From Enterobacteria phage GEC-3S: a DNA stretch of 64,000 bases. A program made the translations under genes and the position numbers. Below, piece by piece: positions 13,834 to 59,763 of the stretch (position 1 is the first letter of the stretch; the number at the start of each line of letters is the position of its first letter). Under the pieces are notes generated by a model. It worked only from the letters and a program-made list of their open reading frames with translations. It ran no database searches and was not told the DNA's origin. Where the stretch lies: sequence record HE978309. The stretch is one strand, 5' to 3'.

Positions 13834-13862
13834 TTTAAACCTCCCATATAACAGAAAACGGG

Positions 13863-13904
13863 GCTAGTATAAAACTAGTCCCCGTTTGAGTCAACCATTA
13901 TTTC
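13863..13904 (-). promoter_or_regulatory. terminator-promoter cassette between alt and the alt-like gene
   Basis: minus strand TTGACT, 17-nt spacer, TATACT; 11-bp stem-loop spanning spacer and -10. Confidence 0.4.
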
Positions 13905-13911: not shown

Positions 13912-15963
13912 TTACATTTTAAATTTATCTGGCATTGCGTCTACAGATACCAGATCAGCGATAAGCTGACGTAGAGTTGCCTTATCTGCTTTCTTACGTT
14001 CGGTTTTAGCTTCGCTAATGAAGCTGGAGAAAGACAGGTCAGAAGCAGGTTTAACAACACCCTCACGGATGAATGCATCACCGTCCGCGATCATCTCGCC
14101 AGATTCTTGTAATGCTGCCAGTTCACTTTTGTTCATAATATGTGCCTCAATGTAATAAGTTTCTTGTGAATCCGTAGATGCCGTAGCACGAGTTACCGTA
14201 TCAAAGGATAACACAACACCGCGAGGAAGTAAAATCTCGCATTCTTTGTAAGCAAATGCTTTGTTACCTACTGGCAATACAGGGATGTTTTCCGCGCCAG
14301 CAATGGAGAAAGCAACATTAGCGCCACCTTCACCGCGAGATCCAGCCATAGAATCTACCCCAGCAACGGCACTAGCCACGTTTGCATTCCAGCCGCCAAA
14401 AATGTTAGGTGCAAGGGAAGTGCTCACGTAGTTTTTAAAGTAAAACGCTTTTTGCTTACGTGCAGTTTCCCACATTTGAGACCGGAAGTCCATACCACGA
14501 TACAGAATAGTACCCGGATCAAGTTTAACGCCATAGTTAGAGAAGGCATTATCCAGTGCATCGCACATCTTGACCAATTCTTCTGGATCTGCGATTCCCT
14601 CAAACTCTTCCAGCTTGCGATCAGTTAGGAAGTTGTTCATATTGATGTATGCTGCATCGGCATATTCGCTCAACACAAAACCTTCCGCGCCCGGCAGATC
14701 AAGATCAATATCTGCCATCATTTCACCCATGTTGCTAGCAATTGCTTCAAACATACCGGAAGCAACATTACGAAGGGCATCGGTTTTAATCTGGGTGATA
14801 TGACTACGCAGCATTTCAGCTTTTACATCTGCTGGCATAGACTGGTCTACTCGATCCATTGCCAGGGCGGTGATCTTGTTTTCGAATACTTCCTCGCTCA
14901 TGATTTCTTTTAAGCGTTTGATTGATGCTGCGATAACTTCCGCAGACAACGGATCATATTGATCCTGAACTTTTACCAGTTCGCTTACTGCGTATTTTGC
15001 ATCGGCTTCGCTTTCAAAAATAGTACGCATGAAACCATAGCGAGTGATAATATCACTTGTCCAGTCATTCAGAGAACGGGCGGTTGAACGTTCTAAGGCT
15101 TGACGGTCAATCAGAGTATTAAACTGTTTCTTAGGTTCTGCTTCGGTGATATCTTCTTCCGGTTTAAGATTAATTTTTTCTGGATGATTCACATAGTCGC
15201 TGTTATAGGTCGCTTGAGTTTTCAGCATTTCTTCTTTAGTCAAACGAGATTTAGCCGCTACGCGTTGTTCTGCTTCCGCGTTTCGTTCTTCTTCTGACAC
15301 AAGACTAGCCGCATATGCCTCATCTTTAGTCAGAGATTCACCAGTAGCCTTAGATACCCAGCGATCACCTAAATCACTTTCTACTTTAGTGAACAAGGAT
15401 TCATCAAGTTTAATCCCTTTAATCTTATCAATCGCCATCCCGCGACGCTTGACAACAACTAAAGCGATCTTTTTGCTGGTCATTACTTCCTGCTGGAATA
15501 CTTCAAACTTCGGTGTACGACGCACCAAACGCTCTATAACGCGCTTAACCAGTTCGGTCTTACCTTTCATGCGGGATACGTTAAAACGGAACATAACAGC
15601 GTCTAATTGCGCTTTACGGGCTGTTTCCATAACCACATCAAACGCACTTGCCATAACTGCAATCGGGTTATCGCCTAGACCATTTTTAAGCTGTACAATA
15701 CGACCGCTTTTGTTCATTTCGCACAGTACAACATGTGCGGTCTTGTCGCCCATACGAATGATTTTAGGTGTTTTGTTGGTGAAGTTACAAAGACGGACAA
15801 TCACATCTTTATCGCGTGTCTGTACTGCAAAAAGCTGTTTAGGATTCTGCTTAGGCTTTAAGCACTGTACCGGAGCAATACTGCCAAAGTTTTCTTCCTC
15901 TTCCGTCAACAGCCATTTCTCGAAAGATTCAATCATTAGATCGTCGATTTCTAAGTTAAACAT
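13912..15963 (-). CDS. alt: Alt ADP-ribosyltransferase
   Basis: 683 aa (T4 Alt is 682 aa by my recollection); ART motifs ILYRG, YVSTSL, KECEIL; position after gene 54. Confidence 0.85.
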   Translation of the reverse strand: MFNLEIDDLMIESFEKWLLTEEEENFGSIAPVQCLKPKQNPKQLFAVQTRDKDVIVRLCNFTNKTPKIIRMGDKTAHVVLCEMNKSGRIVQLKNGLGDNPIAVMASAFDVVMETARKAQLDAVMFRFNVSRMKGKTELVKRVIERLVRRTPKFEVFQQEVMTSKKIALVVVKRRGMAIDKIKGIKLDESLFTKVESDLGDRWVSKATGESLTKDEAYAASLVSEEERNAEAEQRVAAKSRLTKEEMLKTQATYNSDYVNHPEKINLKPEEDITEAEPKKQFNTLIDRQALERSTARSLNDWTSDIITRYGFMRTIFESEADAKYAVSELVKVQDQYDPLSAEVIAASIKRLKEIMSEEVFENKITALAMDRVDQSMPADVKAEMLRSHITQIKTDALRNVASGMFEAIASNMGEMMADIDLDLPGAEGFVLSEYADAAYINMNNFLTDRKLEEFEGIADPEELVKMCDALDNAFSNYGVKLDPGTILYRGMDFRSQMWETARKQKAFYFKNYVSTSLAPNIFGGWNANVASAVAGVDSMAGSRGEGGANVAFSIAGAENIPVLPVGNKAFAYKECEILLPRGVVLSFDTVTRATASTDSQETYYIEAHIMNKSELAALQESGEMIADGDAFIREGVVKPASDLSFSSFISEAKTERKKADKATLRQLIADLVSVDAMPDKFKM

Positions 15964-16030: not shown

Positions 16031-16243
16031 TTATAATGCACCATCGAGCAATTGCTCTAAGGTGTATCCTGAATAGTCTTTTTCAATCAGGGTATATTTT
16101 CCTACTCGTTTAATACAACCGCGCATTTCCACGTATTCTGTGTAGTTGATGGTACGAGTTGTTCCATCTTCCAGTAATGCAGTACCGATTTCGTTAATGC
16201 GGTCATAAGTTACGTCGGTAATGATGATTTCGATGTTAGCCAT
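16031..16243 (-). CDS. hypothetical early protein (70 aa)
   Basis: ORF track; GGAGTATCAA RBS; promoter cassette upstream. Confidence 0.5.
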   Translation of the reverse strand: MANIEIIITDVTYDRINEIGTALLEDGTTRTINYTEYVEMRGCIKRVGKYTLIEKDYSGYTLEQLLDGAL

Positions 16244-16277
16244 TTGATACTCCTTAGTAGTTCGTTTCGGTATGGGT

Positions 16278-16318
16278 GTATTATGATATACACCCTCTGT
16301 TATGTCAACAACTTTTTA
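16278..16318 (-). promoter_or_regulatory. early promoter cassette (PeSL-like)
   Basis: minus strand TTGACA, 17 nt, CATAAT; stem-loop GGGTGTAT...ATACACCC. Confidence 0.55.
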
Positions 16319-16495
16319 GAACATTTTTGAAATTAATTTTGCTTTGATTTCGCAGAGAACACCTAAAGATTTCTCGTCACCCGCTTTTGCTGCTTCTGAT
16401 TGCATTTTTGAAATGGCTTCAATGTCAGTGCAATTATAAGCCGCTTGAACTTTAGCGATTGCGATGATTGCCGATTCGATGGTTAAGTGTTTCAT
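16316..16495 (-). CDS. hypothetical small protein (59 aa)
   Basis: sub-60-aa ORF MKHLTIESAIIAIAK...; GGAGAATCAAAC RBS; own promoter cassette. Confidence 0.45.
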   Translation of the reverse strand: MKHLTIESAIIAIAKVQAAYNCTDIEAISKMQSEAAKAGDEKSLGVLCEIKAKLISKMF

Positions 16496-16524
16496 GTTTG
16501 ATTCTCCTTTCGTTTCGGTATGTG

Positions 16525-16566
16525 TGCATTATAGGGGATCACCGATCCCCTGTCAACAACTTTTTA
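16525..16566 (-). promoter_or_regulatory. early promoter cassette (PeSL-like)
   Basis: TTGACA, spacer GGGGATCGGTGATCCCC (17-nt palindrome), TATAAT. Confidence 0.6.
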
Positions 16567-18371: not shown

Positions 18372-18619
18372 GCTGCCCCCGTTGGTTTGATAGTAACAGA
18401 ATCTAAAAGACCTTTGTTAGCCAGTTCGCGGCAAGTTTTCAGATCCGCAACTTCCCAGCCAGCCGCAATCAGGTTATCAATCAGGCTGTTAGCAACTTCT
18501 TCGCTCATGAAAGAGCACTGTTTGCCGATGGTGTAGCGTACACGCTGTAATTTCAGTTTACGGAAGCCTTTAACGTTCAGGTCTTTAGCGATTTTCTTTG
18601 CGGTTTCGATGTTAGCCAT
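18368..18619 (-). CDS. hypothetical early protein (83 aa)
   Basis: ORF track; first gene after a promoter cassette; GGAGAATCAAAC RBS. Confidence 0.5.
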   Translation of the reverse strand: MANIETAKKIAKDLNVKGFRKLKLQRVRYTIGKQCSFMSEEVANSLIDNLIAAGWEVADLKTCRELANKGLLDSVTIKPTGAA

Positions 18620-18656
18620 TGTTTGATTCTCCTAAGTGGTATCTCGTCTTGATGGT

Positions 18657-18698
18657 TGTATTGTAGGGGAGTTATCCTCCCCTGTCAACACTTTTTAT
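18657..18698 (-). promoter_or_regulatory. early promoter cassette (PeSL-like)
   Basis: TTGACA, spacer GGGGAGGATAACTCCCC palindrome, TACAAT. Confidence 0.55.
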
Positions 18699-18702: not shown

Positions 18703-18870
18703 TTATTTGTTAATTTCTGGTGCGTTGCTAGGATAGTAACCTTCTTTAACTCCGAGGTATTTCGCAACCATCCCTACAATCTTCTGTGCTACTACAATGT
18801 CAAATTTCAGATAATCTTCGCCGTAGGTTTCAATGATATATGCTTCACATGCTGCTTTAGTCTCGAACAT
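18703..18870 (-). CDS. small protein, copy A of a duplicated gene (55 aa)
   Basis: MFETKAACEAYIIETYGEDYLKFDIVVAQKIVGMVAKYLGVKEGYYPSNAPEINK; about 85% nt identity to 21979..22146. Confidence 0.5.
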   Translation of the reverse strand: MFETKAACEAYIIETYGEDYLKFDIVVAQKIVGMVAKYLGVKEGYYPSNAPEINK

Positions 18871-18902
18871 TTTGATTCTCCTATATTTCGTTTCGGTATG
18901 GG

Positions 18903-18944
18903 TGTATTATAGGGGATCTCCCGATCCCCGTCAACAACTTTTTT
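18903..18944 (-). promoter_or_regulatory. early promoter cassette (PeSL-like)
   Basis: TTGACG, spacer GGGATCGGGAGATCCCC, TATAAT, conserved leader. Confidence 0.6.
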
Positions 18945-18948
18945 AAAA

Positions 18949-19230
18949 TTATTCGTGATTAGTTTCGATGTTGTGCATTTTGCACCAGTTCAGCCAATCG
19001 ACCAGGTCTTGATAGTTGATGCTTTTATCTGCTGCCATCGTTTTTGTCTTGATACCCATATGTGCGTTATGAGTAAGCATTTTTACAGTGAACTCAATTT
19101 TATCGCCTTTAGCTTTAACATCAACCAGTTTGGTCCACTGGCTACCAGCGCCGCGAATGTTCATGCCAACGATGTTTCCGATGTATGCTTCTTTGTTTTT
19201 CAGGATTTCGGTTGCTTTGATGAATTTCAT
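18949..19230 (-). CDS. hypothetical early protein (93 aa)
   Basis: ORF track; GGAGAATCAAA RBS. Confidence 0.5.
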   Translation of the reverse strand: MKFIKATEILKNKEAYIGNIVGMNIRGAGSQWTKLVDVKAKGDKIEFTVKMLTHNAHMGIKTKTMAADKSINYQDLVDWLNWCKMHNIETNHE

Positions 19231-19261
19231 TTTTGATTCTCCAGTTCGTTTCGGTATGGGT

Positions 19262-19303
19262 GTATTATGCTATGTTCTTACTTTGGTGTCAACAACTTTT
19301 TTA
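19262..19303 (-). promoter_or_regulatory. early promoter cassette (PeSL-like)
   Basis: TTGACA, 17-18 nt, CATAAT, conserved leader ACACCCATACCGAAACGAAC. Confidence 0.55.
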
Positions 19304-19570
19304 GATATTTTCAGAAATAAATTTTAAAACTTGACGTAAATGTTTCTCATCTTTGATAGTCGCCGGAAGTTCTTCTTTTACTTCCTGTGCAAGATAGATA
19401 TTTCCGTTCCAAGTGAAAGATCCGTCTTCGTTTACGCGATAGCTGAACATCCACTCGCAATCATTTTCGATTTCATATACACATAGAAGAGTATAATCTT
19501 CAAAGCTATTGATTTCAAGGTCGAAGCCGTGACGTTTTGCAAAGTTGGTAGTGGTTTTAGTCAGTGCCAT
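19301..19570 (-). CDS. hypothetical early protein (89 aa)
   Basis: ORF track; GGAGAATCAAAC RBS. Confidence 0.5.
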   Translation of the reverse strand: MALTKTTTNFAKRHGFDLEINSFEDYTLLCVYEIENDCEWMFSYRVNEDGSFTWNGNIYLAQEVKEELPATIKDEKHLRQVLKFISENI

Positions 19571-19606
19571 TGTTTGATTCTCCTAAGTGGTATCTCGTTT
19601 CGATGG

Positions 19607-19648
19607 GTGTATTATGCTATAGGCGTGATCTGGTGTCAATTCTTTTTT
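19607..19648 (-). promoter_or_regulatory. early promoter cassette (PeSL-like)
   Basis: TTGACA then CATAAT-like -10, conserved leader variant. Confidence 0.5.
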
Positions 19649-20054: not shown

Positions 20055-20342
20055 TTAAAACAGTCCTTCCTGTACACCGTAGTAGAGTTCGTCGCTGATA
20101 ATTTCATTAATGCGACGGTGTGCATATTCCTGATTTGCGAAGTTGTCAGCAAGTTCTATTTTAGTTTCGCCGTCATGAGTCCATTTAGTGATAACTTTAC
20201 CATCTGCAAATTTGAAGTTGAACTCTTTAGCTACTGCATCGCGTACCAGACGTGCAAACTTATTGTTGCGGATTGCATTGTCGGTTTCGTGTGCAGCGTG
20301 AGCAAATTTGTTAACTTTCAGAGTGATAGTGATGTATGCCAT
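20055..20342 (-). CDS. hypothetical early protein (95 aa), related to 23382..23693
   Basis: ORF track; shared segment ...RNNKFARLVRDAVAKEFNFKF vs ...LIREVRKALAKEFNTKI. Confidence 0.5.
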   Translation of the reverse strand: MAYITITLKVNKFAHAAHETDNAIRNNKFARLVRDAVAKEFNFKFADGKVITKWTHDGETKIELADNFANQEYAHRRINEIISDELYYGVQEGLF

Positions 20343-20385
20343 AATTTGATTCTCCTAGTTAGAAAGTGTATCTCGTTTCGATGGG

Positions 20386-20427
20386 GATATTATGCTATAT
20401 CCCCGATCCGGTGTCAACACTTTTTAT
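20386..20427 (-). promoter_or_regulatory. early promoter cassette (PeSL-like)
   Basis: TTGACA; -10 CATAAT lies inside hairpin GGGGATAT...ATATCCCC. Confidence 0.5.
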
Positions 20428-21734: not shown

Positions 21735-21914
21735 TTAGAAAGGGATGGTCATTTCTTGAGCTTGTACATTCTCGTTAGGATTAAACTTCATCCAACCGAT
21801 ATTGTCTACCAGCATATGCACATTTTTATCATATCCTACGTGAGTAGTCAACACTAAATGTGCTTTACATTCAACGATGATTTCCATGTACTTCTGAACT
21901 TCGATAGCTTTCAT
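21735..21914 (-). CDS. hypothetical small protein (59 aa)
   Basis: sub-60-aa ORF MKAIEVQKYMEIIVECKAHL...; GGAGAATCAAA RBS; promoter cassette upstream. Confidence 0.4.
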   Translation of the reverse strand: MKAIEVQKYMEIIVECKAHLVLTTHVGYDKNVHMLVDNIGWMKFNPNENVQAQEMTIPF

Positions 21915-21943
21915 TTTGATTCTCCGTTTGTTGTCTTGATGGG

Positions 21944-21985
21944 AGTATCTTACTACTCCCTTTAATCATTGTCAACGATTATTTG
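21944..21985 (-). promoter_or_regulatory. early promoter cassette (PeSL-like)
   Basis: TTGACA, spacer containing GGGAGTAGTAAGATACTCCC hairpin, weak -10. Confidence 0.45.
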
Positions 21986-22146
21986 TTAATTTCTGGTGCG
22001 TTGCTCGGATAGTAACCTTCTTTAACACCCAGATATTTTGCAACCATTCCGGTGATCTTCTGTGCTACTACGATATCGAATTTCAGGTAGTCTTCACCGT
22101 GGTTTGCTACAATGTATGCTTCGCATTCTGCTTTAGTCTGGAACAT
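21979..22146 (-). CDS. small protein, copy B of a duplicated gene (55 aa)
   Basis: ORF track 21979..22212; start at MFQTKAECEAY... with GGAGAATCAAAA RBS; duplicate of 18703..18870. Confidence 0.5.
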   Translation of the reverse strand: MFQTKAECEAYIVANHGEDYLKFDIVVAQKITGMVAKYLGVKEGYYPSNAPEINK

Positions 22147-22177
22147 TTTTGATTCTCCTATATCTCGTTGGTATGTG

Positions 22178-22219
22178 TGTAGTATAGGGGATCGGTGATC
22201 CCCTGTCAACAACTTTTTT
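22178..22219 (-). promoter_or_regulatory. early promoter cassette (PeSL-like)
   Basis: TTGACA, spacer GGGGATCACCGATCCCC, TATACT. Confidence 0.55.
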
Positions 22220-23129: not shown

Positions 23130-23309
23130 TTACATAACAATCACGCCAGCCGTTGAAAGTTGATGTTTCAACTGAGCATTTTCTGCTACCGTCAAATCAA
23201 TGATTTCTTGTGACGCTGCAATCATATATCCATTGGTGATATTGTTTTGCATCAGTTCAATGGTTTCTTCGTTGTAGCGGATTTTAGCGATGATTTCGTT
23301 GAAGTTCAT
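23130..23309 (-). CDS. hypothetical small protein (59 aa)
   Basis: sub-60-aa ORF MNFNEIIAKIRYNEETIELMQ...; GGAGAATCAATC RBS. Confidence 0.4.
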   Translation of the reverse strand: MNFNEIIAKIRYNEETIELMQNNITNGYMIAASQEIIDLTVAENAQLKHQLSTAGVIVM

Positions 23310-23341
23310 GATTGATTCTCCTAGTTCGTTTCGGTATGTGT

Positions 23342-23383
23342 GTATTATAGGGGATCTCCCGATCCCCTGTCAACAACTTTTTT
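23342..23383 (-). promoter_or_regulatory. early promoter cassette (PeSL-like)
   Basis: TTGACA, spacer GGGGATCGGGAGATCCCC, TATAAT, conserved leader. Confidence 0.6.
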
Positions 23384-23693
23384 AAAGTTTTTCCATGATA
23401 ACGGTCATAATTACATCTTCTGCGCGAGCGGTCAGATTATCAGCGTCAGCATGTGGGCGGTTGGTTGTTACAGAGATAGCACCGTTGCGCACTGGTTTGA
23501 TATTGATATCAAGATGATCCGCGAAACGTTCGCCAGTTACAGAATGAATTTTGGTGTTAAATTCTTTTGCCAGTGCCTTGCGAACTTCACGAATCAGGGT
23601 AGCGTTTTTCAGTTGGTTCTCCGCGCTCATGGTCTTCTGGGTGTTCATGGTTCCGTCGAAGTCAATCATTGGCAGCGTTACGATGTATTTCAT
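23382..23693 (-). CDS. hypothetical early protein (103 aa), related to 20055..20342
   Basis: ORF track; GGAGAATCAAAA RBS. Confidence 0.5.
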   Translation of the reverse strand: MKYIVTLPMIDFDGTMNTQKTMSAENQLKNATLIREVRKALAKEFNTKIHSVTGERFADHLDINIKPVRNGAISVTTNRPHADADNLTARAEDVIMTVIMEKL

Positions 23694-23736
23694 TTTTGAT
23701 TCTCCGTTTAAGAAAGTGTGTTTCGTTTTGATGTGT

Positions 23737-23778
23737 GTATTATAAGGGGATCACCGATCCCCTGTCAACAACTTTTTG
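23737..23778 (-). promoter_or_regulatory. early promoter cassette (PeSL-like)
   Basis: TTGACA, spacer GGGGATCGGTGATCCCC, TATAAT. Confidence 0.6.
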
Positions 23779-31164: not shown

Positions 31165-31563
31165 TTAACTTTCCAGAATATCGCGAGCTTCGTTACGCTC
31201 CTTGATGATTTTCAGGACAAATTCCAGTTTTTCTTTGTTTAGTGTTCCGTTTTCCATTGCTTCTTTGACGGTAAACACTCCGCCACCTTGCCCGTATACA
31301 GTGACAGTGATTTCACCTAACATCGTGGTATGAAAACCGCCAATTTTCGGTGATTCGAAAGAAACAATTACCTCGCGGACAGTATTACCGTCGTTGATTT
31401 CTGAGAGGGTAATGTCGTTTTTGTAGGCGGTTGCTTTAACCATACGGATCAGCATAGTCTGATCTGGGGAGATGGTCATTTTGTCCATTGCATGTTGCAA
31501 TGCAGCGTAACCGAAAACTTTAACGAAGTCCAGAACGTCTTTGCGAGTTTGAAATTTAATCAT
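31165..31563 (-). CDS. hypothetical protein (132 aa)
   Basis: ORF track; own promoter cassette. Confidence 0.5.
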   Translation of the reverse strand: MIKFQTRKDVLDFVKVFGYAALQHAMDKMTISPDQTMLIRMVKATAYKNDITLSEINDGNTVREVIVSFESPKIGGFHTTMLGEITVTVYGQGGGVFTVKEAMENGTLNKEKLEFVLKIIKERNEARDILES

Positions 31564-31593
31564 CTTGATACTCCTTAGTTGTTTTAGTATTGG

Positions 31594-31635
31594 AGTATCT
31601 TACTACTCCCGTGATATGCTGTCAACTGCTTTTTT
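31594..31635 (-). promoter_or_regulatory. early promoter cassette (PeSL-like)
   Basis: TTGACA, spacer with GGGAGTAGTAAGATACTCC hairpin. Confidence 0.5.
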
Positions 31636-31783
31636 ATGCAACCGCAAACATCAACATTTGAACATTCTTGGCTGTCTGGCTTTCAAAGTTCTGACATTCT
31701 TTGATAATGTCCTCTACTTTCTCTCCGGAGATCTCCGCGTAAGTTTCGATTGCCATTTTCAGTACCGCGTCAAAGTTGTTCAT
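31634..31783 (-). CDS. hypothetical small protein (49 aa)
   Basis: sub-60-aa ORF MNNFDAVLKMAIETYAEISGEK...; AAGGAGAATCAA RBS. Confidence 0.4.
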   Translation of the reverse strand: MNNFDAVLKMAIETYAEISGEKVEDIIKECQNFESQTAKNVQMLMFAVA

Positions 31784-31818
31784 TTGATTCTCCTTAAAGT
31801 GTATTTCGTTTCGATGGG

Positions 31819-31860
31819 GGTATATTAATACCCCCGTTATTCAGTGTCAACTACTTTTTA
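31819..31860 (-). promoter_or_regulatory. early promoter cassette (PeSL-like)
   Basis: TTGACA; hairpin GGGGGTAT-TAAT-ATACCCCC over the -10 region. Confidence 0.5.
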
Positions 31861-32069
31861 ATGACAAGTTCGAATTTTGCTACCTTGCGTCCGCGTTTAT
31901 TGAAAGCAACCCACGGACGGTTTTCAATGTAGAACAATTCTTCGCCAATAATGAATACTGGCTGATTGTAAAGTCGACCCATCAGGTCACGTTGACGAAT
32001 AGTAGTAGATTCGTATACTTCGCCCACTACAAAGTGTTTGTTGATAGAGTCGGTGCAAATAAATTTCAT
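31851..32069 (-). CDS. hypothetical protein (72 aa)
   Basis: ORF track; AGGAGAATCAAA RBS. Confidence 0.5.
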   Translation of the reverse strand: MKFICTDSINKHFVVGEVYESTTIRQRDLMGRLYNQPVFIIGEELFYIENRPWVAFNKRGRKVAKFELVIKK

Positions 32070-32096
32070 TTTGATTCTCCTTTGTTTCTTGGTGGG

Positions 32097-32138
32097 GTAT
32101 ATTACTACCCCCGTTATTCAGTGTAAACTACTTTTTAC
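32097..32138 (-). promoter_or_regulatory. early promoter cassette (PeSL-like)
   Basis: GTTTACA -35 (T4-type), hairpin GGGGGTAGTAATATACCCC. Confidence 0.5.
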
Positions 32139-32353
32139 TTGTTGTATTCATTCCACCATTGGGTGAGCTTATCAATTATTTTTGTGTTTCTATCCAACTT
32201 ATCCCACCGTTTTCGAGGGTTTATCAACCGGAATAGGTAAGGTGTACTTGTTAAGTGAACTCGGTCAATATAGTGATTGATGTACTGCTTTTCGATTCTA
32301 AGTTTCATCTTTTTACGATGAAAATATGCAATAACTTGTTCTTCTGTTTCCAT
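32135..32353 (-). CDS. hypothetical protein (72 aa)
   Basis: ORF track; GGAGGAACAT RBS. Confidence 0.5.
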   Translation of the reverse strand: METEEQVIAYFHRKKMKLRIEKQYINHYIDRVHLTSTPYLFRLINPRKRWDKLDRNTKIIDKLTQWWNEYNK

Positions 32354-32374
32354 ATGTTCCTCCGTCTCGATGTG

Positions 32375-32416
32375 CGTATTATGCTATGGTAAGATCCGAT
32401 TGTCAACACCCAATAA
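32375..32416 (-). promoter_or_regulatory. early promoter (sigma70-like)
   Basis: TTGACA, about 17 nt, CATAAT; immediately follows a terminator hairpin. Confidence 0.5.
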
Positions 32417-34443: not shown

Positions 34444-34631
34444 TATTCGACAACCTCAAAGCATTTATCATCAGGAAGAATAGCCCATTCTATGCCGTAT
34501 TCATCCTCAACGTAGTAGCAAGCCCCATCATGTCGAGCATCATATTCATCACGTCGAGCATCATATACATCACCGACAACAAAGCTATCAGCTAGCTCAA
34601 AATCTACAGCAACACATTTTAATTTGGTCAT
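34443..34631 (-). CDS. hypothetical acidic protein (62 aa)
   Basis: ORF track 34443..34694; start MTKLKCVAV with GTGAGGAT RBS. Confidence 0.45.
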   Translation of the reverse strand: MTKLKCVAVDFELADSFVVGDVYDARRDEYDARHDGACYYVEDEYGIEWAILPDDKCFEVVE

Positions 34632-34659
34632 AATAAAATCCTCACTTGTTTTTGATGGT

Positions 34660-34701
34660 TGAATTATAGCGGGGATTTCTCCCCGCGTCAACACTTATTT
34701 T
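34660..34701 (-). promoter_or_regulatory. promoter with palindromic spacer, just downstream of nrdA
   Basis: TTGACG, spacer CGGGGAGAAATCCCCGC, TATAAT. Confidence 0.5.
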
Positions 34702-39154: not shown

Positions 39155-39484
39155 TCAAATCAGTTTGAAATAGTTTTCGTTTACATTTTCTTCTGTGATT
39201 GCTGTCTTAAATTCTTGACCGTTATCCGGTGTGATGAAATAACGGTCAGAATAATCACGAAAACGTTTTAAGTGAGATACCCCAACATTAACACCATTTT
39301 CCCAAAAACGAAAGGTAATCATTTTTGGTTCATATCGATAGTCGCTGGTTAACACAGTACCATCACCGCGACGGGCTTCATAAACCGTAATACATTCACG
39401 ATTAGCGGCTTTAAGGCATTCTTCAATAGTGCCGCATGAGATAATACTTACTTTTTCATCTACGATTTGTTCTACAGTCCACAT
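39155..39484 (-). CDS. hypothetical protein (~109 aa)
   Basis: ORF track 39155..39517; the first ATG lies inside the promoter -10; second ATG has GAGAGGAT RBS. Confidence 0.45.
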   Translation of the reverse strand: MWTVEQIVDEKVSIISCGTIEECLKAANRECITVYEARRGDGTVLTSDYRYEPKMITFRFWENGVNVGVSHLKRFRDYSDRYFITPDNGQEFKTAITEENVNENYFKLI

Positions 39485-39512
39485 AATATAATCCTCTCTT
39501 TGTTTCGATATG

Positions 39513-39554
39513 TGCATTATACACTATTGCGTTACGCTGTCAACTCTTTTTCAA
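39513..39554 (-). promoter_or_regulatory. early promoter (sigma70-like)
   Basis: TTGACA, about 16 nt, TATAAT. Confidence 0.5.
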
Positions 39555-40710
39555 AAGATTTTACGATATACATGATGGTGCTCAATTCGGACGGCGCTAC
39601 TGTCTCTGTGTAGCCATCCGGCATATCTTCTTTCGAGATATAGGAAGTTTTACCTTTCATTGCTTCCTTGATTTTGTTCTCTAATTCTAAGATCTTTTGA
39701 CCGTCTTGTAAAGTCAATTCATAAAAGATCTCATGATCGAACTTTGAAACACGAGATTGGTTTCTCATGCGCTCATGTGTTTCTTTGTTTGTTATTCCAA
39801 ATTTCACGCCAACAAAGGAATCATTGTTGGTTAATTTCTGTATATAAAGAGTTCCTGTCTTTAATGCCTGATAACCATGCTTAGAACACAACGGGCAGCG
39901 TGTTCCGCGATTAACAAAATTATCAATAGTTACATCCCATTCATGGTTACGTTCGCATGTCAGAAGTATTCTTGTTAATGCACCTTTCCACTTTCCTGAA
40001 ATCCCAATAAATTTTAGTCTGTTGGTTTCGCATATTTTTTCAATTTGTTTTAATCGGTCACTTTTTGTTATTGGTGCTGTTCCGCTACATTTGCGACACC
40101 GACGACCTAGTTTGAACTTATCATAACTTTGTTCGTAAATGTGATTATTAGGACACTCAAATTTAAGTTTAGTTTTTGTTCCTCTCCATTCCCCAATTAT
40201 ACCCAAAAATTTATAATCTCCTTTATTTTCATTTATATAAGATAAGGAATCTTCTTTATCATGCATCTTGCCCCCGTTACATAAAGGACATCTTGTTTTT
40301 TGATGAATGAAATCTGTATATGTTGGTTGGTATGTGTGTCCGTTTGTACAGTTCATAATGAGTCTTGTTCTGCTATTTTTATACTCCCCACCAACAAAAC
40401 CAACAAATACATCGTTTGTTTCTTGTTTTATTCTTTCTATCACATTGTTTGGGTTTAATCTTTGAGAATCAACCACACATTTCTTACACGAAACTTTTTT
40501 CCTGATATTTGCTAGAGTTGATGTGTATTCATGCTTGTTATTACATAATATAAGAGCTTTTGTTTTGAGACCAGACCATTCTCCAACAAACCCCATGAAA
40601 GAATAACCAACTTCCAAACATGATTTTTTTACAACATTTTCCCAATAGAAGGGAGTTTTCGTGTTTCCTTTTATTTCTATACGAATCTCATGTGCTTGAC
40701 GTACTAACAT
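39532..40710 (-). CDS. protein with four zinc-ribbon repeats and a C-terminal T5orf172/GIY-YIG-like domain
   Basis: ORF track 39532..40755; start MLVRQAHEIR with GGAGGA RBS; four repeats of G..G.W.G..TK....C...H.Y...(F)....RC..C; C-terminal GTLYIQKL...VGVKFGITN. Confidence 0.55.
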   Translation of the reverse strand: MLVRQAHEIRIEIKGNTKTPFYWENVVKKSCLEVGYSFMGFVGEWSGLKTKALILCNNKHEYTSTLANIRKKVSCKKCVVDSQRLNPNNVIERIKQETNDVFVGFVGGEYKNSRTRLIMNCTNGHTYQPTYTDFIHQKTRCPLCNGGKMHDKEDSLSYINENKGDYKFLGIIGEWRGTKTKLKFECPNNHIYEQSYDKFKLGRRCRKCSGTAPITKSDRLKQIEKICETNRLKFIGISGKWKGALTRILLTCERNHEWDVTIDNFVNRGTRCPLCSKHGYQALKTGTLYIQKLTNNDSFVGVKFGITNKETHERMRNQSRVSKFDHEIFYELTLQDGQKILELENKIKEAMKGKTSYISKEDMPDGYTETVAPSELSTIMYIVKSFEKELTA

Positions 40711-40737
40711 ATTTTTATCCTCCGTTGTTTCGATGAT

Positions 40738-40779
40738 TGTATTATACATTACCACATCAGCATGTCAATACATTTTCAT
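40738..40779 (-). promoter_or_regulatory. early promoter (sigma70-like)
   Basis: TTGACA, 16-17 nt, TATAAT, directly after the gp32 terminator. Confidence 0.5.
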
Positions 40780-57590: not shown

Positions 57591-58391
57591 TTAACCCTTC
57601 TTATATTCGCAAACATATTGAGTACCATAATCATAGCTAATGCGACCTTTCTCGATGACTTCAAAGCGGATTTCATCGTTTTCCCCTACCCACATTTTGT
57701 ACTCGTTGAAGTATCCTGCTACATCCGGTTTGCTCATACCAACAACCATATTTTTATATTGTTTGCTGCGTGTCAGATTTGATTTAAACACTTCGCGCTC
57801 ATCAACATATACGAAAGAAGACAATTCACCTTCGGTCATGGTCATTTTCAGCTTGCCGCCCTTGTTGCCATAAGTAGAGTTGCCATACAATGGATCTTTG
57901 CGGCTGTCTGTTTCAATACCATCAATGATTTTCCATGTAAATTTTGCAATGCACTGATAAGTGATAGATCCAGAGATTTTCTCTTCTTTCTTCTGTTCTT
58001 CCACCACTTTTTCTTCCTGTTTCGGCTGTTCTTCTTCAACCTTCACGGAAGTCTCTGAATCGATTTCTGACGCGGTTTCTTCTTTAGGTAATACATTCAT
58101 CAAGTTTTGGATTTGAGCGTTATATACAGCCTCCAGTGGCTGGATCTGCCCGATATTGATCATTGTATCACGAACAGTTTTATTCCAGTTGCGTTGCTCT
58201 TGTTTAAGAGACGGATCAATCTTAACAGCCTTAACATATACTTCATGAAGTTTCGAATCCAGTGCGGAGATTGACTCATTAGCACAAATAAACTTCTCTG
58301 ATTTGGTAGTAGCTTTAGCGCAATCAAAGGACGCAGCATTAGCACCGAAAGCAGTAGCAGAAAGAACGATAGCAGCGATAATGTTTTTCAT
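57591..58391 (-). CDS. secreted protein with DUF1311 (LprI-like) N-terminal domain
   Basis: 266 aa; signal peptide MKNIIAAIVLSATAFGANA; FDCAKATTKSEKFIC...LDSKLHEVY. Confidence 0.5.
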   Translation of the reverse strand: MKNIIAAIVLSATAFGANAASFDCAKATTKSEKFICANESISALDSKLHEVYVKAVKIDPSLKQEQRNWNKTVRDTMINIGQIQPLEAVYNAQIQNLMNVLPKEETASEIDSETSVKVEEEQPKQEEKVVEEQKKEEKISGSITYQCIAKFTWKIIDGIETDSRKDPLYGNSTYGNKGGKLKMTMTEGELSSFVYVDEREVFKSNLTRSKQYKNMVVGMSKPDVAGYFNEYKMWVGENDEIRFEVIEKGRISYDYGTQYVCEYKKG

Positions 58392-58421
58392 AATATATTC
58401 CTCAATGTTTTTCTTGATGGG

Positions 58422-58463
58422 AGTATCTTACTACTCCCTTAATCCGGTGTCAACTACTTTTTA
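58422..58463 (-). promoter_or_regulatory. early promoter cassette (PeSL-like)
   Basis: TTGACA with GGGAGTAGTAAGATACTCCC hairpin. Confidence 0.5.
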
Positions 58464-58673
58464 ATTTTTACCCACTCGTGCATTAATGCGCATTTTCTGC
58501 ATAGCCATGATCTGGTTTACTGCTTCTTCTTTACGTTCTTGCGTGATAACGTGACCAGATTCCGCAAACTCTCCAGCAACTTCTTCTACGATCTCGCGAA
58601 CTTGAGAACGTCCAAAGATGCGGTTTCCTTCGTAGCTCATAAATTCAGTCACTACTTGCTCAATAGATTTCAT
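58461..58673 (-). CDS. hypothetical protein (70 aa)
   Basis: ORF track; GGAGAATCACATG RBS. Confidence 0.5.
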   Translation of the reverse strand: MKSIEQVVTEFMSYEGNRIFGRSQVREIVEEVAGEFAESGHVITQERKEEAVNQIMAMQKMRINARVGKN

Positions 58674-58703
58674 GTGATTCTCCTTCTTTCGTTTCGGTGT
58701 GGT

Positions 58704-58745
58704 AGTATGTTAATACTCCCATTTCTTTACGTCAACCAGTTTTTA
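58704..58745 (-). promoter_or_regulatory. early promoter cassette (PeSL-like)
   Basis: TTGACG then TAACAT-like -10, conserved leader. Confidence 0.45.
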
Positions 58746-58985
58746 GAAATTTTTCGCTTCTTCTTCGGTCATCATCACCGCGCATTCGTGCATAACTTTG
58801 AAAACCGGGTCAATCATATCGAATGCTTCGCGGGACAGTTTACGAGAAGCGATTTTGACTGCTTCAACGTCTTCTACTACAGGAACAAAAACAGTTTTCA
58901 GTTCGTCGAGCATGGCAGCTTCTTTTTCATTCAGGAAGATTCCAGCGTCGTACAATGCAACTTCGATAACATTAACTTTAACCAT
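58743..58985 (-). CDS. hypothetical protein (~80 aa)
   Basis: ORF track 58743..59048; start MVKVNVIE with GGAGGAAATAAAA RBS. Confidence 0.45.
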   Translation of the reverse strand: MVKVNVIEVALYDAGIFLNEKEAAMLDELKTVFVPVVEDVEAVKIASRKLSREAFDMIDPVFKVMHECAVMMTEEEAKNF

Positions 58986-59016
58986 TTTTATTTCCTCCAG
59001 TTCGTTTCGGTATGGG

Positions 59017-59058
59017 AGTATAATACTACCGATGACCTTTGGCGTCAACTAGTTTTTG
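59017..59058 (-). promoter_or_regulatory. early promoter cassette (PeSL-like)
   Basis: TTGACG, 17 nt, TATTAT-like, conserved leader ACTCCCATACCGAAACGAAC. Confidence 0.5.
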
Positions 59059-59420: not shown

Positions 59421-59693
59421 TCACCAGTCAAGAGCGCGTGTCTCTGCGTCTTCCCATGCTTGATCCATAACAGCCTTGAAAACATATTCTAAAGTATCAT
59501 CTTTAGAGAATCCGAAGACCTTAGACGGGATATCTTCAATTGCTACTCCCGCAACTTCTGCATTACGCGCTTGGCAATAATGCAACTCTAAGTTATCGAG
59601 ATAGCGACCGCCTAATTTCTCCATATCATCCCAGCATTTCCAGTAACCTACTTTATCTGCAATTGCTAACACTTTGCTGTTTTTGTTGCTCAT
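59421..59693 (-). CDS. hypothetical protein (90 aa)
   Basis: ORF track 59421..59783; start MSNKNSK with AAAAGGAGAATCAAAG RBS. Confidence 0.45.
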   Translation of the reverse strand: MSNKNSKVLAIADKVGYWKCWDDMEKLGGRYLDNLELHYCQARNAEVAGVAIEDIPSKVFGFSKDDTLEYVFKAVMDQAWEDAETRALDW

Positions 59694-59721
59694 CTTTGAT
59701 TCTCCTTTTGTTTGGTATGGG

Positions 59722-59763
59722 TGTATTATGCAATGCTGGATTTGTGAAGTCAACAACTTTTTA
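59722..59763 (-). promoter_or_regulatory. early promoter cassette (PeSL-like)
   Basis: TTGACT, 17 nt, CATAAT, conserved leader ACACCCATACCAAACAAAAGGAGAATCAAAG. Confidence 0.55.

What the first reader, a model, noticed from the sequence alone, without database searches (positions are those of the whole stretch)
16246..16277. Highly conserved transcribed leader shared by many early genes
Downstream of the -10, at least ten cassettes share an almost identical roughly 30-nt leader, ACACCCATACCGAAACGAAC...GGAGAATCAAA-ATG (example given here; others at about 16496-16527, 18871-18905, 19231-19264, 23310-23345 and 58986-59020). Promoter function does not require a conserved 5' UTR, so this suggests a shared post-transcriptional control site. 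The GGAG in the Shine-Dalgarno is the motif cut by T4 RegB on early mRNAs, and the region could also be a translational repressor site.
Basis: partly seen in the sequence, partly recalled or inferred. Interest (0 to 1): 0.4.

Follow-up and report, generated by a model that had tools for sequence, protein, structure and literature searches.

The report
Conserved start-site leader of phage early promoters
The repeated ~30-base block is the downstream half of already-described mobile early-promoter cassettes (PeSLs) of an RB49/phi1-type T4-like coliphage; its ribosome-binding end looks like a RegB RNase cutting site, while its start-site end is a short T-free motif that also occurs in T1-like phages, resembles T7 starts, and has no reported function in what I could search.

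Summary
The window is a Krischvirus (98.7% identical to phage phi1). It carries 22 minus-strand sigma70-type cassettes, each ending in a short leader of 18-40 nt.

These are the published PeSL cassettes of Arbiol et al. 2010. The papers I could read do not discuss the leader itself.

The block has three parts:
- **Discriminator (-6..-1).** ACACCC is probably not transcribed and is often the 3' arm of the PeSL stem-loop.
- **Start-site motif.** A(+1)Y(AC)CRARACRA sits at a fixed distance from the -10 and has 1 T in 220 positions.
- **SD block.** GGAGAAUCAAA matches the RegB/S1 target GGAGRAYARAA at 10 of 11 positions.

regB and regA lie outside the window but are present in phi1.

Recent duplication does not explain the conservation:
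- Only 1 pair of the 22 downstream genes is paralogous.
- Orthologous leaders show 1 change in 300 nt, against 5-7% at neutral-like sites.
- The start motif recurs in RB43, RB16, KP15 and PX29-type phages and in T1-like phages, behind different promoters and SDs.

The leaders are predicted to be unstructured, so there is no covariation to test.

Best reading: a promoter and leader module for strong immediate-early expression, with RegB shut-off plausible at the SD only. Moderate interest.

The parts
16241..16308 (-). Example cassette (upstream of the ORF185 homologue), -35 to ATG. Parts: TTGACA 16303-16308; spacer 16286-16302; -10 CATAAT 16280-16285; discriminator ACACCC 16274-16279; inferred +1 A at 16273; ITS AUACCGAAACGA 16262-16273; insert ACUACUAA 16254-16261; SD block GGAGUAUCAA 16244-16253; ATG 16241-16243. 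The stem-loop GGGTGTAT/ATACACCC spans 16274-16295.
16493..16556 (-). Cassette. Stem-loop GGGGATCGGTGATCCCC lies in the spacer. TATAAT-gcacac-AUACCGAAACGAAA-GGAGAAUCAAAC-AUG; +1 at 16521.
18617..18688 (-). Cassette: AUCAAGACGAGAUACCACUUA-GGAGAAUCAAACA-AUG; +1 at 18653.
18868..18934 (-). Cassette: acaccc-AUACCGAAACGAAAUAUA-GGAGAAUCAAA-AUG; +1 at 18899.
19228..19292 (-). Cassette: acaccc-AUACCGAAACGAACU-GGAGAAUCAAAA-AUG; +1 at 19257. No stem-loop in the spacer.
19568..19639 (-). Cassette: acaccc-AUCGAAACGAGAUACCACUUA-GGAGAAUCAAACA-AUG; +1 at 19604.
20340..20417 (-). Cassette: atcccc-AUCGAAACGAGAUACACUUUCUAACUA-GGAGAAUCAAAUU-AUG; +1 at 20382. The stem-loop GGGGATAT/ATATCCCC shows compensatory changes in a relative.
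21912..21975 (-). Cassette: actccc-AUCAAGACAACAAAC-GGAGAAUCAAA-AUG; +1 at 21940.
22144..22209 (-). Cassette: acacac-AUACCAACGAGAUAUA-GGAGAAUCAAAA-AUG; +1 at 22174.
23307..23373 (-). Cassette: acacac-AUACCGAAACGAACUA-GGAGAAUCAAUC-AUG; +1 at 23337.
23691..23768 (-). Cassette, the homologue of published PeSL211/210: acacac-AUCAAAACGAAACACACUUUCUUAAAC-GGAGAAUCAAAA-AUG; +1 at 23732.
31561..31625 (-). Cassette: actcca-AUACUAAAACAACUAA-GGAGUAUCAAG-AUG; +1 at 31590.
31781..31850 (-). Cassette: accccc-AUCGAAACGAAAUACACUUUAA-GGAGAAUCAA-AUG; +1 at 31815.
32067..32127 (-). Cassette with -35 TTTACA: acccc-ACCAAGAAACAAA-GGAGAAUCAAA-AUG; +1 near 32092-32093.
32351..32406 (-). Cassette: acgcac-AUCGAGAC-GGAGGAACAU-AUG. 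The start matches that of T7 A1. +1 at 32371.
34629..34691 (-). Cassette: tcaacc-AUCAAAAACAAGU-GAGGAUUUUAUU-AUG. The SD is not RegB-type. +1 at 34656.
39482..39543 (-). Cassette: gcacat-AUCGAAACAAAGA-GAGGAUUAUAUU-AUG; +1 at 39509.
40708..40768 (-). Cassette: acaatc-AUCGAAACAAC-GGAGGAUAAAAAU-AUG. The SD is GGAGGAUAAAA, an 11/11 match to the RegB/S1 consensus. +1 at 40734.
58389..58453 (-). Cassette: actccc-AUCAAGAAAAACAUU-GAGGAAUAUAUU-AUG; +1 at 58418.
58671..58735 (-). Cassette: actacc-ACACCGAAACGAAAGAA-GGAGAAUCAC-AUG; +1 at 58700.
58983..59048 (-). Cassette: actccc-AUACCGAAACGAACU-GGAGGAAAUAAAA-AUG; +1 at 59013.
59691..59753 (-). Cassette: acaccc-AUACCAAACAAAA-GGAGAAUCAAAG-AUG; +1 at 59718.

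Best explanation
The block is the downstream half of the PeSL early-promoter cassettes of an RB49/phi1-type phage. It is a composite of three adjacent functional pieces, not one post-transcriptional operator.

1. **Discriminator.** A C-rich 6-nt stretch (ACACCC, ACACAC or ACTCCC; untranscribed) often doubles as the 3' arm of the cassette's stem-loop.
2. **Start-site module.** The start A sits in C-A-U, followed by a T-free, purine/C initial transcribed sequence AY(AC)CRARACRA. It is locked in register with the -10.
   - Inferred role at the DNA/RNAP level: give near-consensus, UP-element-bearing sigma70 promoters fast, productive initiation and escape.
   - Inferred role as RNA: provide an unstructured 5' end for a very short leader.
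3. **SD block.** GGAGAAUCAAA placed 0-3 nt before the AUG is a strong ribosome-binding site. Inferred: it is also cut by the phage RegB/S1 nuclease between GG and AG, which shuts these immediate-early messages off.

The sequence is kept by purifying selection. It is also homogenised and reshuffled by homologous recombination between cassettes, and the leader itself serves as a crossover site.

**Shown:** anatomy, register, constraint, lack of predicted structure, cross-lineage distribution, presence of regB and regA in relatives.

**Inferred:** the transcription start, the effect on escape or translation, and RegB cleavage at these sites.
For: **Identity as PeSLs**
- 98.7% identity to phi1.
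- The published description covers stop codon, AT-rich tract, -35, stem-loop, -10, SD and ATG over about 100 bp. Promoter and terminator activity were shown for three PeSLs.

**Register**
- In 22/22 cassettes the conserved motif begins immediately after a 5-6-nt discriminator (6 nt in 21), starting with the A of C-A-U in 21/22. The distance to the SD varies by 0-19 nt.
- The motif is essentially confined to promoter starts: 15 of 18 hits, against 3.7 expected.

**Composition**
- 1 T in 220 positions at +3..+12.
- Only R<->R variation at three positions.

**Literature on ITS**
- ITS changes can alter promoter strength more than 10-fold. Slow-escaping ITSs carry 2-3 T's or TG in the first ~7 nt, GG and GA favour escape, and purine content correlates with productive yield (PMC5961368).

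**Mapped starts elsewhere**
- The annotated T7 A1 and A3 starts are the A of cc-AUCGAGAGGG and cac-AUGAAACGACAG, the same kind of start.
- rrnB P1 and P2 have C-rich discriminators (P2: TATTAT-GCACACCCC), and P1 has a U-poor ITS.

**Constraint**
- Against Krischvirus GoldenSnicker: ITS 0/120, insert 0/61, SD 1/119. Compare spacer 7.1%, discriminator 6.7%, AT-rich tract 5.7%, codon position 3 5.4%. Fisher p=3.8e-6.

**Not gene duplication**
- Only 1 paralogous pair among the 22 downstream proteins.

**Cross-lineage**
- The same 'ACACAC-ATCGAAACGA' follows three unrelated upstream promoter architectures. It occurs in Slopekvirus, RB43, RB16, KP15 and PX29-type phages and in T1-like Drexlerviridae, with non-GGAG SDs.
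- It occurs in bacterial genomes only at about the number of matches I estimate for chance.

**RNA structure**
- Leaders are less structured than shuffles (mean z=+0.82). They fold about half as stably as other TIRs (p=3e-8).
- No Rfam family matches.

**RegB part**
- 10/11 match to GGAGRAYARAA.
- Enrichment at promoter-proximal genes.
- regB, regA and pseT are present in phi1. RegB is at >=95% identity in 57 records, close to the number of Krischvirus genomes found.
- RB49 RegB is reported to be active.

**Recombination**
- Published mini-circle crossovers lie between the SD and the -10.
- The promoter halves of cassettes 22209 and 23373 are swapped between genomes while each leader stays with its gene.
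Against: - No 5'-end mapping was available to me, so +1 is inferred. In the AUACC class the start could be the second A, which would put all classes in one register.
- The insert between the ITS and the SD is as conserved between orthologues as the ITS (0/61). This points to a constraint on the whole RNA leader, not only on initiation.
- The ITS contains two CG steps, which Heyduk and Heyduk found mildly unfavourable for escape in two of three promoter contexts.
- With leaders of only 18-40 nt the whole 5' UTR lies in the 30S footprint, so a translational role cannot be separated from a transcriptional one by sequence alone.
- Position 8 of the RegB/S1 site is C where T4 strongly prefers A. 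A resistant T4 RNA (gene 1) has C at positions 8 and 10.
- Cassettes are homologous, so the enrichment statistics are inflated by non-independence.
- Gene conversion among copies could mimic purifying selection within the genus.
- T4 itself uses a different conserved leader, AU(A/C)AACUACUGAGGAG. The motif is therefore not a general requirement of E. coli RNAP.
Confidence: 0.55

Rival explanations
1. RNA-level 5'-UTR element. The whole short leader, 5' block included, is selected as RNA. It would be an unstructured, U-poor platform that enhances 30S/S1 binding. It could also protect the 5' end, as a poor substrate for RNase E or RppH. Promoter kinetics would play no part.
For: - The entire leader, insert included, is invariant between orthologues (1/300).
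- Leaders are significantly less structured than other TIRs.
- At 18-40 nt the leader lies wholly inside a ribosome footprint.
- U-poor sequence lacks the AU-rich sites RNase E prefers (general knowledge).
Against: - The motif keeps register with the -10, not with the SD or AUG.
- The untranscribed discriminator ACACAC is co-conserved with it across phage families.
- The motif is not found upstream of internal SDs. Internal intergenic gaps are, however, too short to hold it.
- It pairs with 16S and 23S rRNA no better than shuffles do (z +1.7 and +2.3 for 16S).
Confidence: 0.25
2. Shared post-transcriptional operator. The whole ~30-nt leader would be one recognition site for a phage trans-factor, RegB or a RegA-like repressor.
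For: - The GGAG SD matches the RegB/S1 target at 10/11.
- regB and regA are present in phi1.
- RegB-like SDs are enriched at promoter-proximal genes.
Against: - T4 RegB/S1 needs only GGA plus 7-8 nt on the 3' side, and nothing 5' of it.
- The spacing between the 5' block and the SD varies by 0-19 nt.
- The 5' block is retained in RB43, RB16 and KP15-type phages with GGAA-type SDs. The T4 study found GGAA very poorly cut.
- It is also retained in T1-like phages, which to my knowledge lack regB and regA.
- Known RegA sites are U/A-rich and overlap the AUG (general knowledge). That resembles the other TIR class in this window, GAGGAUUAUAUU-AUG, more than it resembles this one.
Confidence: 0.08
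3. No function of its own. The leader would be conserved only because PeSL cassettes are mobile and recombining, so concerted evolution and horizontal spread keep it uniform. It would serve merely as homology for cassette shuffling.
For: - PeSLs recombine, and mini-circle junctions map between the -10 and the SD.
- Promoter halves are swapped between cassettes in different genomes.
- A T1-type promoter box occurs inside T4-like genomes.
- A methylase gene is shared with siphophages at 65-78% nucleotide identity.
Against: - Within a cassette the spacer, discriminator and AT-rich tract diverge at 6-7% while the leader does not. Homogenisation alone would not spare only the leader.
- Across families only the discriminator and ITS are shared, while the -35, -10, upstream box and SD differ.
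- Variation is restricted to purine-for-purine changes at three positions, and T is excluded.
Confidence: 0.1

Closest known systems
PeSL (promoter-early stem-loop) cassettes of RB49/phi1 (Arbiol, Comeau, Kutateladze, Adamia & Krisch 2010, PMC2839356; Comeau et al. 2014, PMC4122927)
   Same: These are the same elements in a 98.7%-identical genome. Each has an AT-rich tract with the upstream stop codon, TTGACA-N17-TATAAT, a G(n)-loop-C(n) stem-loop, then SD and ATG. They lie in the hyperplastic regions upstream of ORFans. Recombination junctions fall inside the leader.
   Different: The two papers treat the segment between the -10 and the SD only as part of the ~100-bp homology. A word search of the 2010 paper finds no 'leader', 'UTR' or 'RegB'. 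The 2014 paper's consensus descriptions cover only the -35, the -10 and the stem-loop. They do not mention that the start motif recurs outside T4-like phages.
RegB/S1 endoribonuclease target of T4 (GGAGRAYARAA; Durand et al. 2006, PMC1702504)
   Same: - The site starts with GGAG, inside the SD of promoter-proximal early genes.
- It has an A-rich 7-nt tail with a pyrimidine at position 7.
- It is single-stranded.
- It matches at 10/11 positions.
- A RegB homologue is encoded by the genus.
   Different: Position 8 is C, not A. The RB49-type RegB is only about 42% identical to T4 RegB. Cleavage of these particular sites was not verified here. The RegB target explains nothing 5' of GGAG.
Initial-transcribed-sequence (downstream region) effects at strong coliphage promoters: T5 N25, T7 A1 and A3 (Kammerer et al. 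1986; Hsu et al.; Heyduk & Heyduk 2018, PMC5961368)
   Same: A sequence at +1 to about +12, in register with the -10, at near-consensus promoters. It is T-poor and purine-rich, as in fast-escaping ITSs. The T7 A1 (AUCGAGAGGG) and A3 (AUGAAACGACAG) starts resemble it.
   Different: Here a specific motif, not just a composition, is conserved across dozens of promoters and several phage lineages. No kinetic data exist for it.
T4 early promoter and RBS consensus (Liebig & Rueger 1989; from memory)
   Same: T4 early promoters also have a conserved start and leader, AU(A/C)AACUACUGAGGAG, as seen.
   Different: The sequence is different, with no CGAAACGA. The promoter hexamers differ too (GTTTAC... 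and TAYWAT).
E. coli rrnB P1 and P2
   Same: A consensus-like -10, a C-rich discriminator (P2: GCACACCCC) and, for P1, an upstream UP-like A/T tract and an almost U-free early transcript.
   Different: Resemblance only. The exact phage module occurs in bacterial genomes only at about the chance level I estimated.

Membership tests
PeSL cassette | Near-consensus sigma70 promoter (TTGACA-N17-TATAAT) preceded by an AT-rich tract that holds the upstream gene's stop codon | tested here: met
   22 cassettes. Independent scan: 10 sites with >=11/12 matches in 8.5 kb.
PeSL cassette | G(n)-loop-C(n) stem-loop overlapping or adjacent to the promoter | tested here: met
   - GGGGATC..GATCCCC lies in the spacer of 5 cassettes.
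- Other stems span the -10 and end at -1.
- 16274-16295 is detected as a hairpin.
- Cassette 20417 shows compensatory double changes.
- A few cassettes (19292, 19639, 59753) have no internal stem.
PeSL cassette | SD and start codon of the downstream ORF at the 3' end; location in hyperplastic regions upstream of ORFans | tested here: met
PeSL cassette | Promoter and terminator activity | not testable with these tools
   Published for PeSL193/192, 206/205 and 211/210 of phi1. Their homologues in the window are the cassettes upstream of ORFs 205 and 210 and the single cassette between ORFs 193 and 191.
RegB/S1 cleavage site | Invariant GGA, with G (rarely U) at position 4 | tested here: met
   18 of 22 cassettes have a GGAG SD.
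RegB/S1 cleavage site | 7-nt tail RAYARAA: A at 6, 8, 10 and 11; Y at 7; no C at 5, 6 or 9 | tested here: inconclusive
   GGAGAAUCAAA matches at 10/11, with C at position 8 where T4 prefers A. The 40768 cassette matches at 11/11.
RegB/S1 cleavage site | Site is single-stranded | tested here: met
   Predicted mean unpaired probability is 0.67. Leaders are less structured than shuffles. This is a prediction only.
RegB/S1 cleavage site | RegB nuclease encoded by the phage | tested here: met
   Not in the window. In phi1 (98.7% identical) regB lies at 51255-51677 and matches Pfam REGB_T4 at E=1e-48. 57 records carry it at >=95% identity, close to the number of Krischvirus genomes found.
RegB/S1 cleavage site | RegB-dependent cut between GG and AG in vivo or in vitro | not testable with these tools
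   RB49 sites are shown in Fig. 3A of PMC1702504 and in Piesiniene et al. 2004, but neither the sequences nor that paper were readable here.
RegA translational operator | U/A-rich RNA overlapping the AUG that is bound by RegA | tested here: not met
   The leader is U-poor, and its conserved part lies 12-35 nt upstream of the AUG at variable spacing. The definition of RegA sites rests on my own knowledge. Binding cannot be tested here.
Structured cis-regulatory RNA (riboswitch, attenuator or protein-binding hairpin) | Conserved secondary structure supported by covariation | tested here: not met
   No Rfam hit. Mean z=+0.82 against shuffles. The only helix is the PeSL stem-loop, which lies upstream of +1.
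ITS / promoter-escape element | Fixed register with the -10 and start site; T-poor, purine-rich composition at about +3..+10 | tested here: met
   criteria taken
ITS / promoter-escape element | Measured effect on abortive/productive ratio or on escape rate | not testable with these tools
   None available.

The most novel reading that the evidence does not exclude
The discriminator-plus-start module (ACACAC/ACACCC, then AUCGAAACGA and its R-variants) would be a distinct, phage-specific promoter-proximal element. It is shared by the early promoters of several T4-like genera (RB49, RB43, RB16, KP15 and PX29 types), by T1-like siphophages and, in weaker form, by T7 A1 and A3. It would have a dedicated function not yet described. 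One possibility is a recognition or kinetic signal that lets phage early promoters or transcripts out-compete host ones. Another is that it marks early 5' ends for a common host factor. It would be exchanged between phage families as the 3' half of mobile promoter cassettes.
Probability: 0.25. Interest if true: 0.65.

Novelty: new variant of a known kind. Interest (0 to 1): 0.4.

Why it matters
The cassettes themselves are already published, and RegB cutting of GGAG Shine-Dalgarno sites is textbook T4 biology. To that extent the finding is ordinary.

What is new is the split of the 'leader' into two independent modules. The start-site module is under strong constraint. It also recurs behind unrelated promoter architectures in several T4-like genera and in T1-like phages, while bacterial genomes hold it only at about chance level.

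If it has a specific role, it would give a testable handle on two questions:
- how virulent coliphages make their immediate-early promoters so strong;
- how early expression is delimited. A 2010 review still calls early-promoter shut-off 'not completely understood'.

It would also offer a compact, portable promoter and 5'-UTR part for synthetic biology. Finally, it sharpens the PeSL model: the leader is both a functional unit and a crossover point for gene shuffling, possibly between phage families.

Tried and rejected
- **Covariation or structure in the leader.** The leaders fold less well than shuffles, so there is no helix to test.
- **Known RNA families.** There is no Rfam hit anywhere in the window.
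- **Enhancer complementary to rRNA.** Duplexes with 16S and 23S rRNA are no better, and mostly worse, than shuffled motifs.
- **Whole-gene or whole-cassette duplication.** Only one paralogous pair exists among the 22 downstream proteins, and there is little similarity in the upstream flanks.
- **Host-like promoter feature.** The strict pattern gives 8 hits in 596 Gb of bacterial genomes. That is close to the roughly 8 matches I estimated by hand from the pattern's specificity. Three of them lie on one 178-kb contig that is probably a phage.
- **T4 as a positive control.** T4 early promoters do not carry the motif.
- **Literature.**
  - A string search for the motif found only unrelated primers.
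  - Desplats 2002 and Piesiniene 2004 are not held.
  - I did not look for Truncaite 2006.
  - The published RB49 5'-end and RegB-site maps could therefore not be consulted.
- **Technical.** Loci L003, L004 and L007 never reached the Python sandbox. The genome-wide cassette census of phi1 was therefore limited to pattern counts.
- **Not resolved.** I did not establish whether Slopekvirus genomes encode RegB.
Full report
**What the window is.** Window 15000-20000 matches Escherichia phage Phi1 (Krischvirus, the RB49 group of T4-like phages) at 98.7% over its full length. The finding lies in the hyperplastic region between alt and DNA ligase gene 30. All genes there are on the minus strand and nearly all are small ORFans. 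The quoted leader is therefore the reverse complement of the + strand text.

- The 20-mer ACACCCATACCGAAACGAAC has 6 hits at <=3 mismatches, against 0.02 expected.
- GGAGAATCAA occurs 13 times, against 0.15 expected. Every hit is on the minus strand and directly upstream of an ATG.
- Phi1 positions 1-99,800, the part of the genome that lies before the window, hold 13 more copies.
- A systematic parse finds 22 cassettes with one architecture.
- An independent consensus scan finds ten promoters with >=11/12 matches in 8.5 kb.

'At least ten almost identical' is generous for the 5' block. It is within <=1 mismatch in 5 cassettes, <=3 in 6 and <=5 in 8. It is fair for the SD block, which is exact in 12 and within <=1 mismatch in 15. 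It also holds for the 5' block if a 2-nt AC indel and purine-for-purine changes are allowed.

**Anatomy**. Each cassette reads, in order:
- AAAAAGTTG, an AT-rich tract that holds the upstream stop codon.
- TTGACA.
- A 16-18-nt spacer.
- TATAAT or CATAAT.
- A 6-nt C-rich discriminator. ACACCC, ACACAC and ACTCCC are typical; C is present in 21/22 at -5 and 19/22 at -1.
- A-T. A is present at the seventh base after the -10 in 21/22, and T follows in 20/22.
- An optional AC.
- C-R-A-R-A-C-R-A.
- A variable insert. The distance from the end of the +1..+12 block to the SD is 0-15 nt, and up to 19 nt from the end of the core motif. A subset carries a second shared module, (A/G)AUAC(C)ACUU(U).
- GGAGAAUCAAA.
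- 0-3 nt, then AUG.

Leaders are only 18-40 nt long.

In many cassettes the discriminator is the 3' arm of the PeSL stem-loop. In the example, GGGTGTAT-atcata-ATACACCC spans 16274-16295, and the terminator scan also picks it up. The stem ends exactly at -1.

The start assignment is an inference from the standard 7-nt spacing. It is supported by the annotated starts of T7 A1 and A3. Those fall on the A of cc-AUCGAGAGGG and cac-AUGAAACGACAG.

**What is already known.** These are the PeSL (promoter-early stem-loop) cassettes described for phi1 and RB49.
- There are 52 and 51 copies, with conservation over about 100 bp from the stop codon to the start codon.
- Promoter and terminator activities have been demonstrated.
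- Recombination between copies generates indels and mini-circles.

Neither PeSL paper discusses the segment between the -10 and the SD, or RegB. A literature string search for the motif found nothing relevant.

**Two modules, not one.**

*Start-site block.* It keeps register with the -10 while its distance to the SD varies.
- The pattern A[TC](AC)?CRARACRA has 18 hits in the window, 15 of them at the +1 of the 22 promoters. Shuffles give 3.7.
- Positions +3..+12 contain 1 T in 220.
- The only tolerated variation is G<->A at three positions.

*SD block.* GGAGAAUCAAA matches the 11-nt RegB/S1 target GGAGRAYARAA (T4 optimum GGAGAAUAAAA) at 10 of 11 positions. It has C where T4 prefers A at position 8.
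- Such SDs are found at 14 of 17 mapped promoter-proximal genes, against 8 of 89 others.
- Three of those 8 are promoter-proximal genes that failed coordinate mapping. Fisher p=1.6e-9.
- Internal genes mostly use a different conserved TIR, uGAGGAuUAUAUU-AUG.

T4 RegB/S1 requires sequence 3' of GGAG but not 5' of it. RegB therefore cannot account for the start-site block.

**RegB and RegA.** Neither gene is in the window. In Phi1, regB lies at 51255-51677 (Pfam REGB_T4, E=1e-48) and regA at 18732-19094 (Pfam Translat_reg, E=2e-54). pseT (PNK), dmd, srd, modB and alt are also present. RegB at >=95% identity is found in 57 phage records, about the number of Krischvirus genomes. It is only about 42% identical to T4 RegB. 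A review states that the RB49 regB SD (GGAU) is cleaved in vivo and that the protein is divergent. Cleavage of the GGAGAAUCAAA sites is thus plausible, but I could not verify it.

**Is it just duplication?** No.
- *Downstream genes.* Only one pair of the 22 downstream proteins is paralogous (87% identity). Near-identical leaders precede unrelated ORFs and follow unrelated spacers.
- *Orthologue comparison.* The table gives the counts for ten cassettes against Krischvirus GoldenSnicker, about 93% identical across this region.

| Segment | Substitutions |
|---|---|
| ITS +1..+12 | 0/120 |
| Insert | 0/61 (one 2-nt indel) |
| SD block | 1/119 |
| -35 | 0/60 |
| -10 | 2/60 (3.3%) |
| Spacer | 12/170 (7.1%) |
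| Discriminator | 4/60 (6.7%) |
| AT-rich tract | 16/281 (5.7%) |
| Codon position 3 | 27/500 (5.4%) |

  Leader 1/300 against 55/951 gives p=3.8e-6. The discriminator changes together with the 5' stem arm. In cassette 20417, GGGGATAT..ATATCCCC corresponds to GGGTGTAT..ATACACCC, which supports the stem-loop and leaves the ITS untouched.
- *Other lineages.* The start-site block recurs elsewhere with different partners.
  - Slopekvirus phiEap-3 has ...TATATT-acacac-AUCGAAACGAAACAGAGAAAGGAAAACAUC-AUG behind TTGCAT-type -35 boxes embedded in terminator hairpins.
  - An IMG/VR scan finds the same module many times in contigs whose lengths equal those of the RB43, RB16, KP15 and PX29 genomes, in the Krischvirus ECD7 genome, and in ~50-kb T1-like contigs.
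  - In the T1-like Hanrivervirus aaroes about 7 of 12 early promoters are followed by acacac-AUCGA(A/C)AACGA(A/G). These carry a quite different upstream box, AATAGCACTTTTTGTTAAAA.
  - In those phages the SDs are GGAA- or GAGG-type, not GGAGAAUCAAA.
  - T4 itself uses another conserved leader, AU(A/C)AACUACUGAGGAG.
  - In 596 Gb of bacterial genomes the strict pattern has 8 hits. I estimate about 8 by chance, and three lie on one 178-kb contig that is probably a phage.

**RNA structure.** From +1 to AUG+33 the 22 transcripts fold less stably than shuffles (mean z=+0.82). They also fold half as stably per nucleotide as 78 other TIRs of the window (-0.050 against -0.106 kcal/mol/nt, p=3e-8). Predicted unpaired probability is higher too. 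No Rfam family matches anywhere in the window. So there is no helix in the leader and no covariation to test. The motif pairs with 16S and 23S rRNA no better than shuffled versions.

**Most likely mechanism.**

*Start-site block.* It behaves like a discriminator-plus-ITS module of very strong promoters. Four observations fit this:
- its register with the -10;
- co-conservation of the untranscribed discriminator across families;
- exclusion of T;
- purine-for-purine variation only.

Published work shows that an ITS can change promoter strength more than 10-fold. Slow-escaping ITSs carry T's or TG in the first ~7 nt. GG and GA favour escape, and purine content correlates with productive yield. 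T7 A1 and A3, and rrnB P1 and P2, show related designs.

The same sequence gives an unstructured, U-poor 5' end to a leader that lies entirely within a ribosome footprint. The insert is as invariant as the ITS. An RNA-level contribution to translation or stability is therefore likely, and sequence alone cannot separate it from the promoter role.

*SD block.* It is a strong RBS and, by inference, a RegB/S1 site. That would give these promoter-proximal ORFan genes a burst of expression followed by functional inactivation, as in T4.

*Recombination.* Recombination between cassettes both uses and helps to homogenise the leader. The promoter halves of cassettes 22209 and 23373 are exchanged between the two genomes while each leader stays with its gene.

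**Verdict.** The cassettes are already known. The dissection into two modules, the strong constraint, and the cross-family recurrence of the start-site module appear to be unreported in the literature I could search. Interest is moderate (0.4).

Noticed in passing
L008 (phiEap-3) about 14111-14210; L009 (aaroes) upstream of starts 8072, 6046, 6918, 7422 and 9461; IMG/VR loci L015, L017, L046, L052, L084: A T1-like promoter box, (A)ATAGCAC(T/G)NNTTG(C/T)TAAAAC, is typical of Drexlerviridae early promoters. It also occurs inside RB16, KP15 and Slopekvirus-type T4-like genomes. In both settings it is followed by ACACAC-ATCGAAACGA. This suggests that promoter cassettes are exchanged between phage families.
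   Followed up: partly
window 17413-18129 (-), the ORF189 homologue (DNA methyltransferase): This methylase gene matches genes of many ~40-53-kb siphophages (T1-like, Dhillonvirus, Kagunavirus) at 65-78% nucleotide identity. That is independent evidence of gene flow between these phage groups.
   Followed up: no
window 55346-55594 (-), the ORF255 homologue next to holin t: The 82-aa product of the Phi1 orthologue matches the Pfam Tad2-like (Thoeris anti-defence 2) domain at E=3.4e-6, 27.9 bits against a cut-off of 25.
   Followed up: no
window, the TIRs of internal genes such as ATG 27628 (cd), 57285, 22734, 20004 and 57083; also cassettes 34691, 39543 and 58453: A second conserved translation-initiation type, uGAGGA(U/A)UAUAUU-AUG, is used mostly by genes without their own promoter. 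From memory, its U/A-rich sequence across the AUG resembles T4 RegA targets more than the GGAGAAUCAAA class does.
   Followed up: no
window 20383-20411 (-), compared with L011: The stem-loop of cassette 20417 shows compensatory double substitutions. GGGGATAT..ATATCCCC in the window corresponds to GGGTGTAT..ATACACCC in phage GoldenSnicker. This supports a selected hairpin that includes the -10 and the discriminator.
   Followed up: partly
window cassettes 22209 and 23373, compared with L011: The promoter and stem-loop halves (GGGGATCACCGATCCCC-TATACT and GGGGATCGG(G/T)(A)GATCCCC-TATAAT) are swapped between these two cassettes in the two genomes, while each leader stays with its gene. The crossover point therefore lies at about the -10/+1 boundary.
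   Followed up: partly
window spacers of cassettes 16556, 18934, 22209, 23373 and 23768: [quoted passage not shown] The phage encodes a Dam methylase.
   Followed up: no
window 18704-18870 and 21980-22146 (-): The ORF191 and ORF205 homologues are 87%-identical paralogues. The sequence downstream of each, which is the upstream flank of the next cassette, is also duplicated at 84% over 189 nt. This is a local segmental duplication inside the hyperplastic region.
   Followed up: partly
L094, L095 and L097 (NZ_JBHSCL010000010.1, 178,077 bp, in a Flagellimonas marina assembly): This one 178-kb contig in a marine Flavobacteriia genome assembly carries three copies of the strict -10/ACACMC/ATCGAAACGA pattern. 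Its size and the motif suggest an RB43-like T4-type phage genome, possibly contamination.
   Followed up: no
window 13831-13894 (-), 22732-22812 (-) and 41796-41862 (-): These sigma70-like promoters lack the start motif. They lie upstream of the ORF183 ADP-ribosyltransferase, ORF207 and gene 32. The motif is therefore typical of early-type promoters here but not universal.
   Followed up: no
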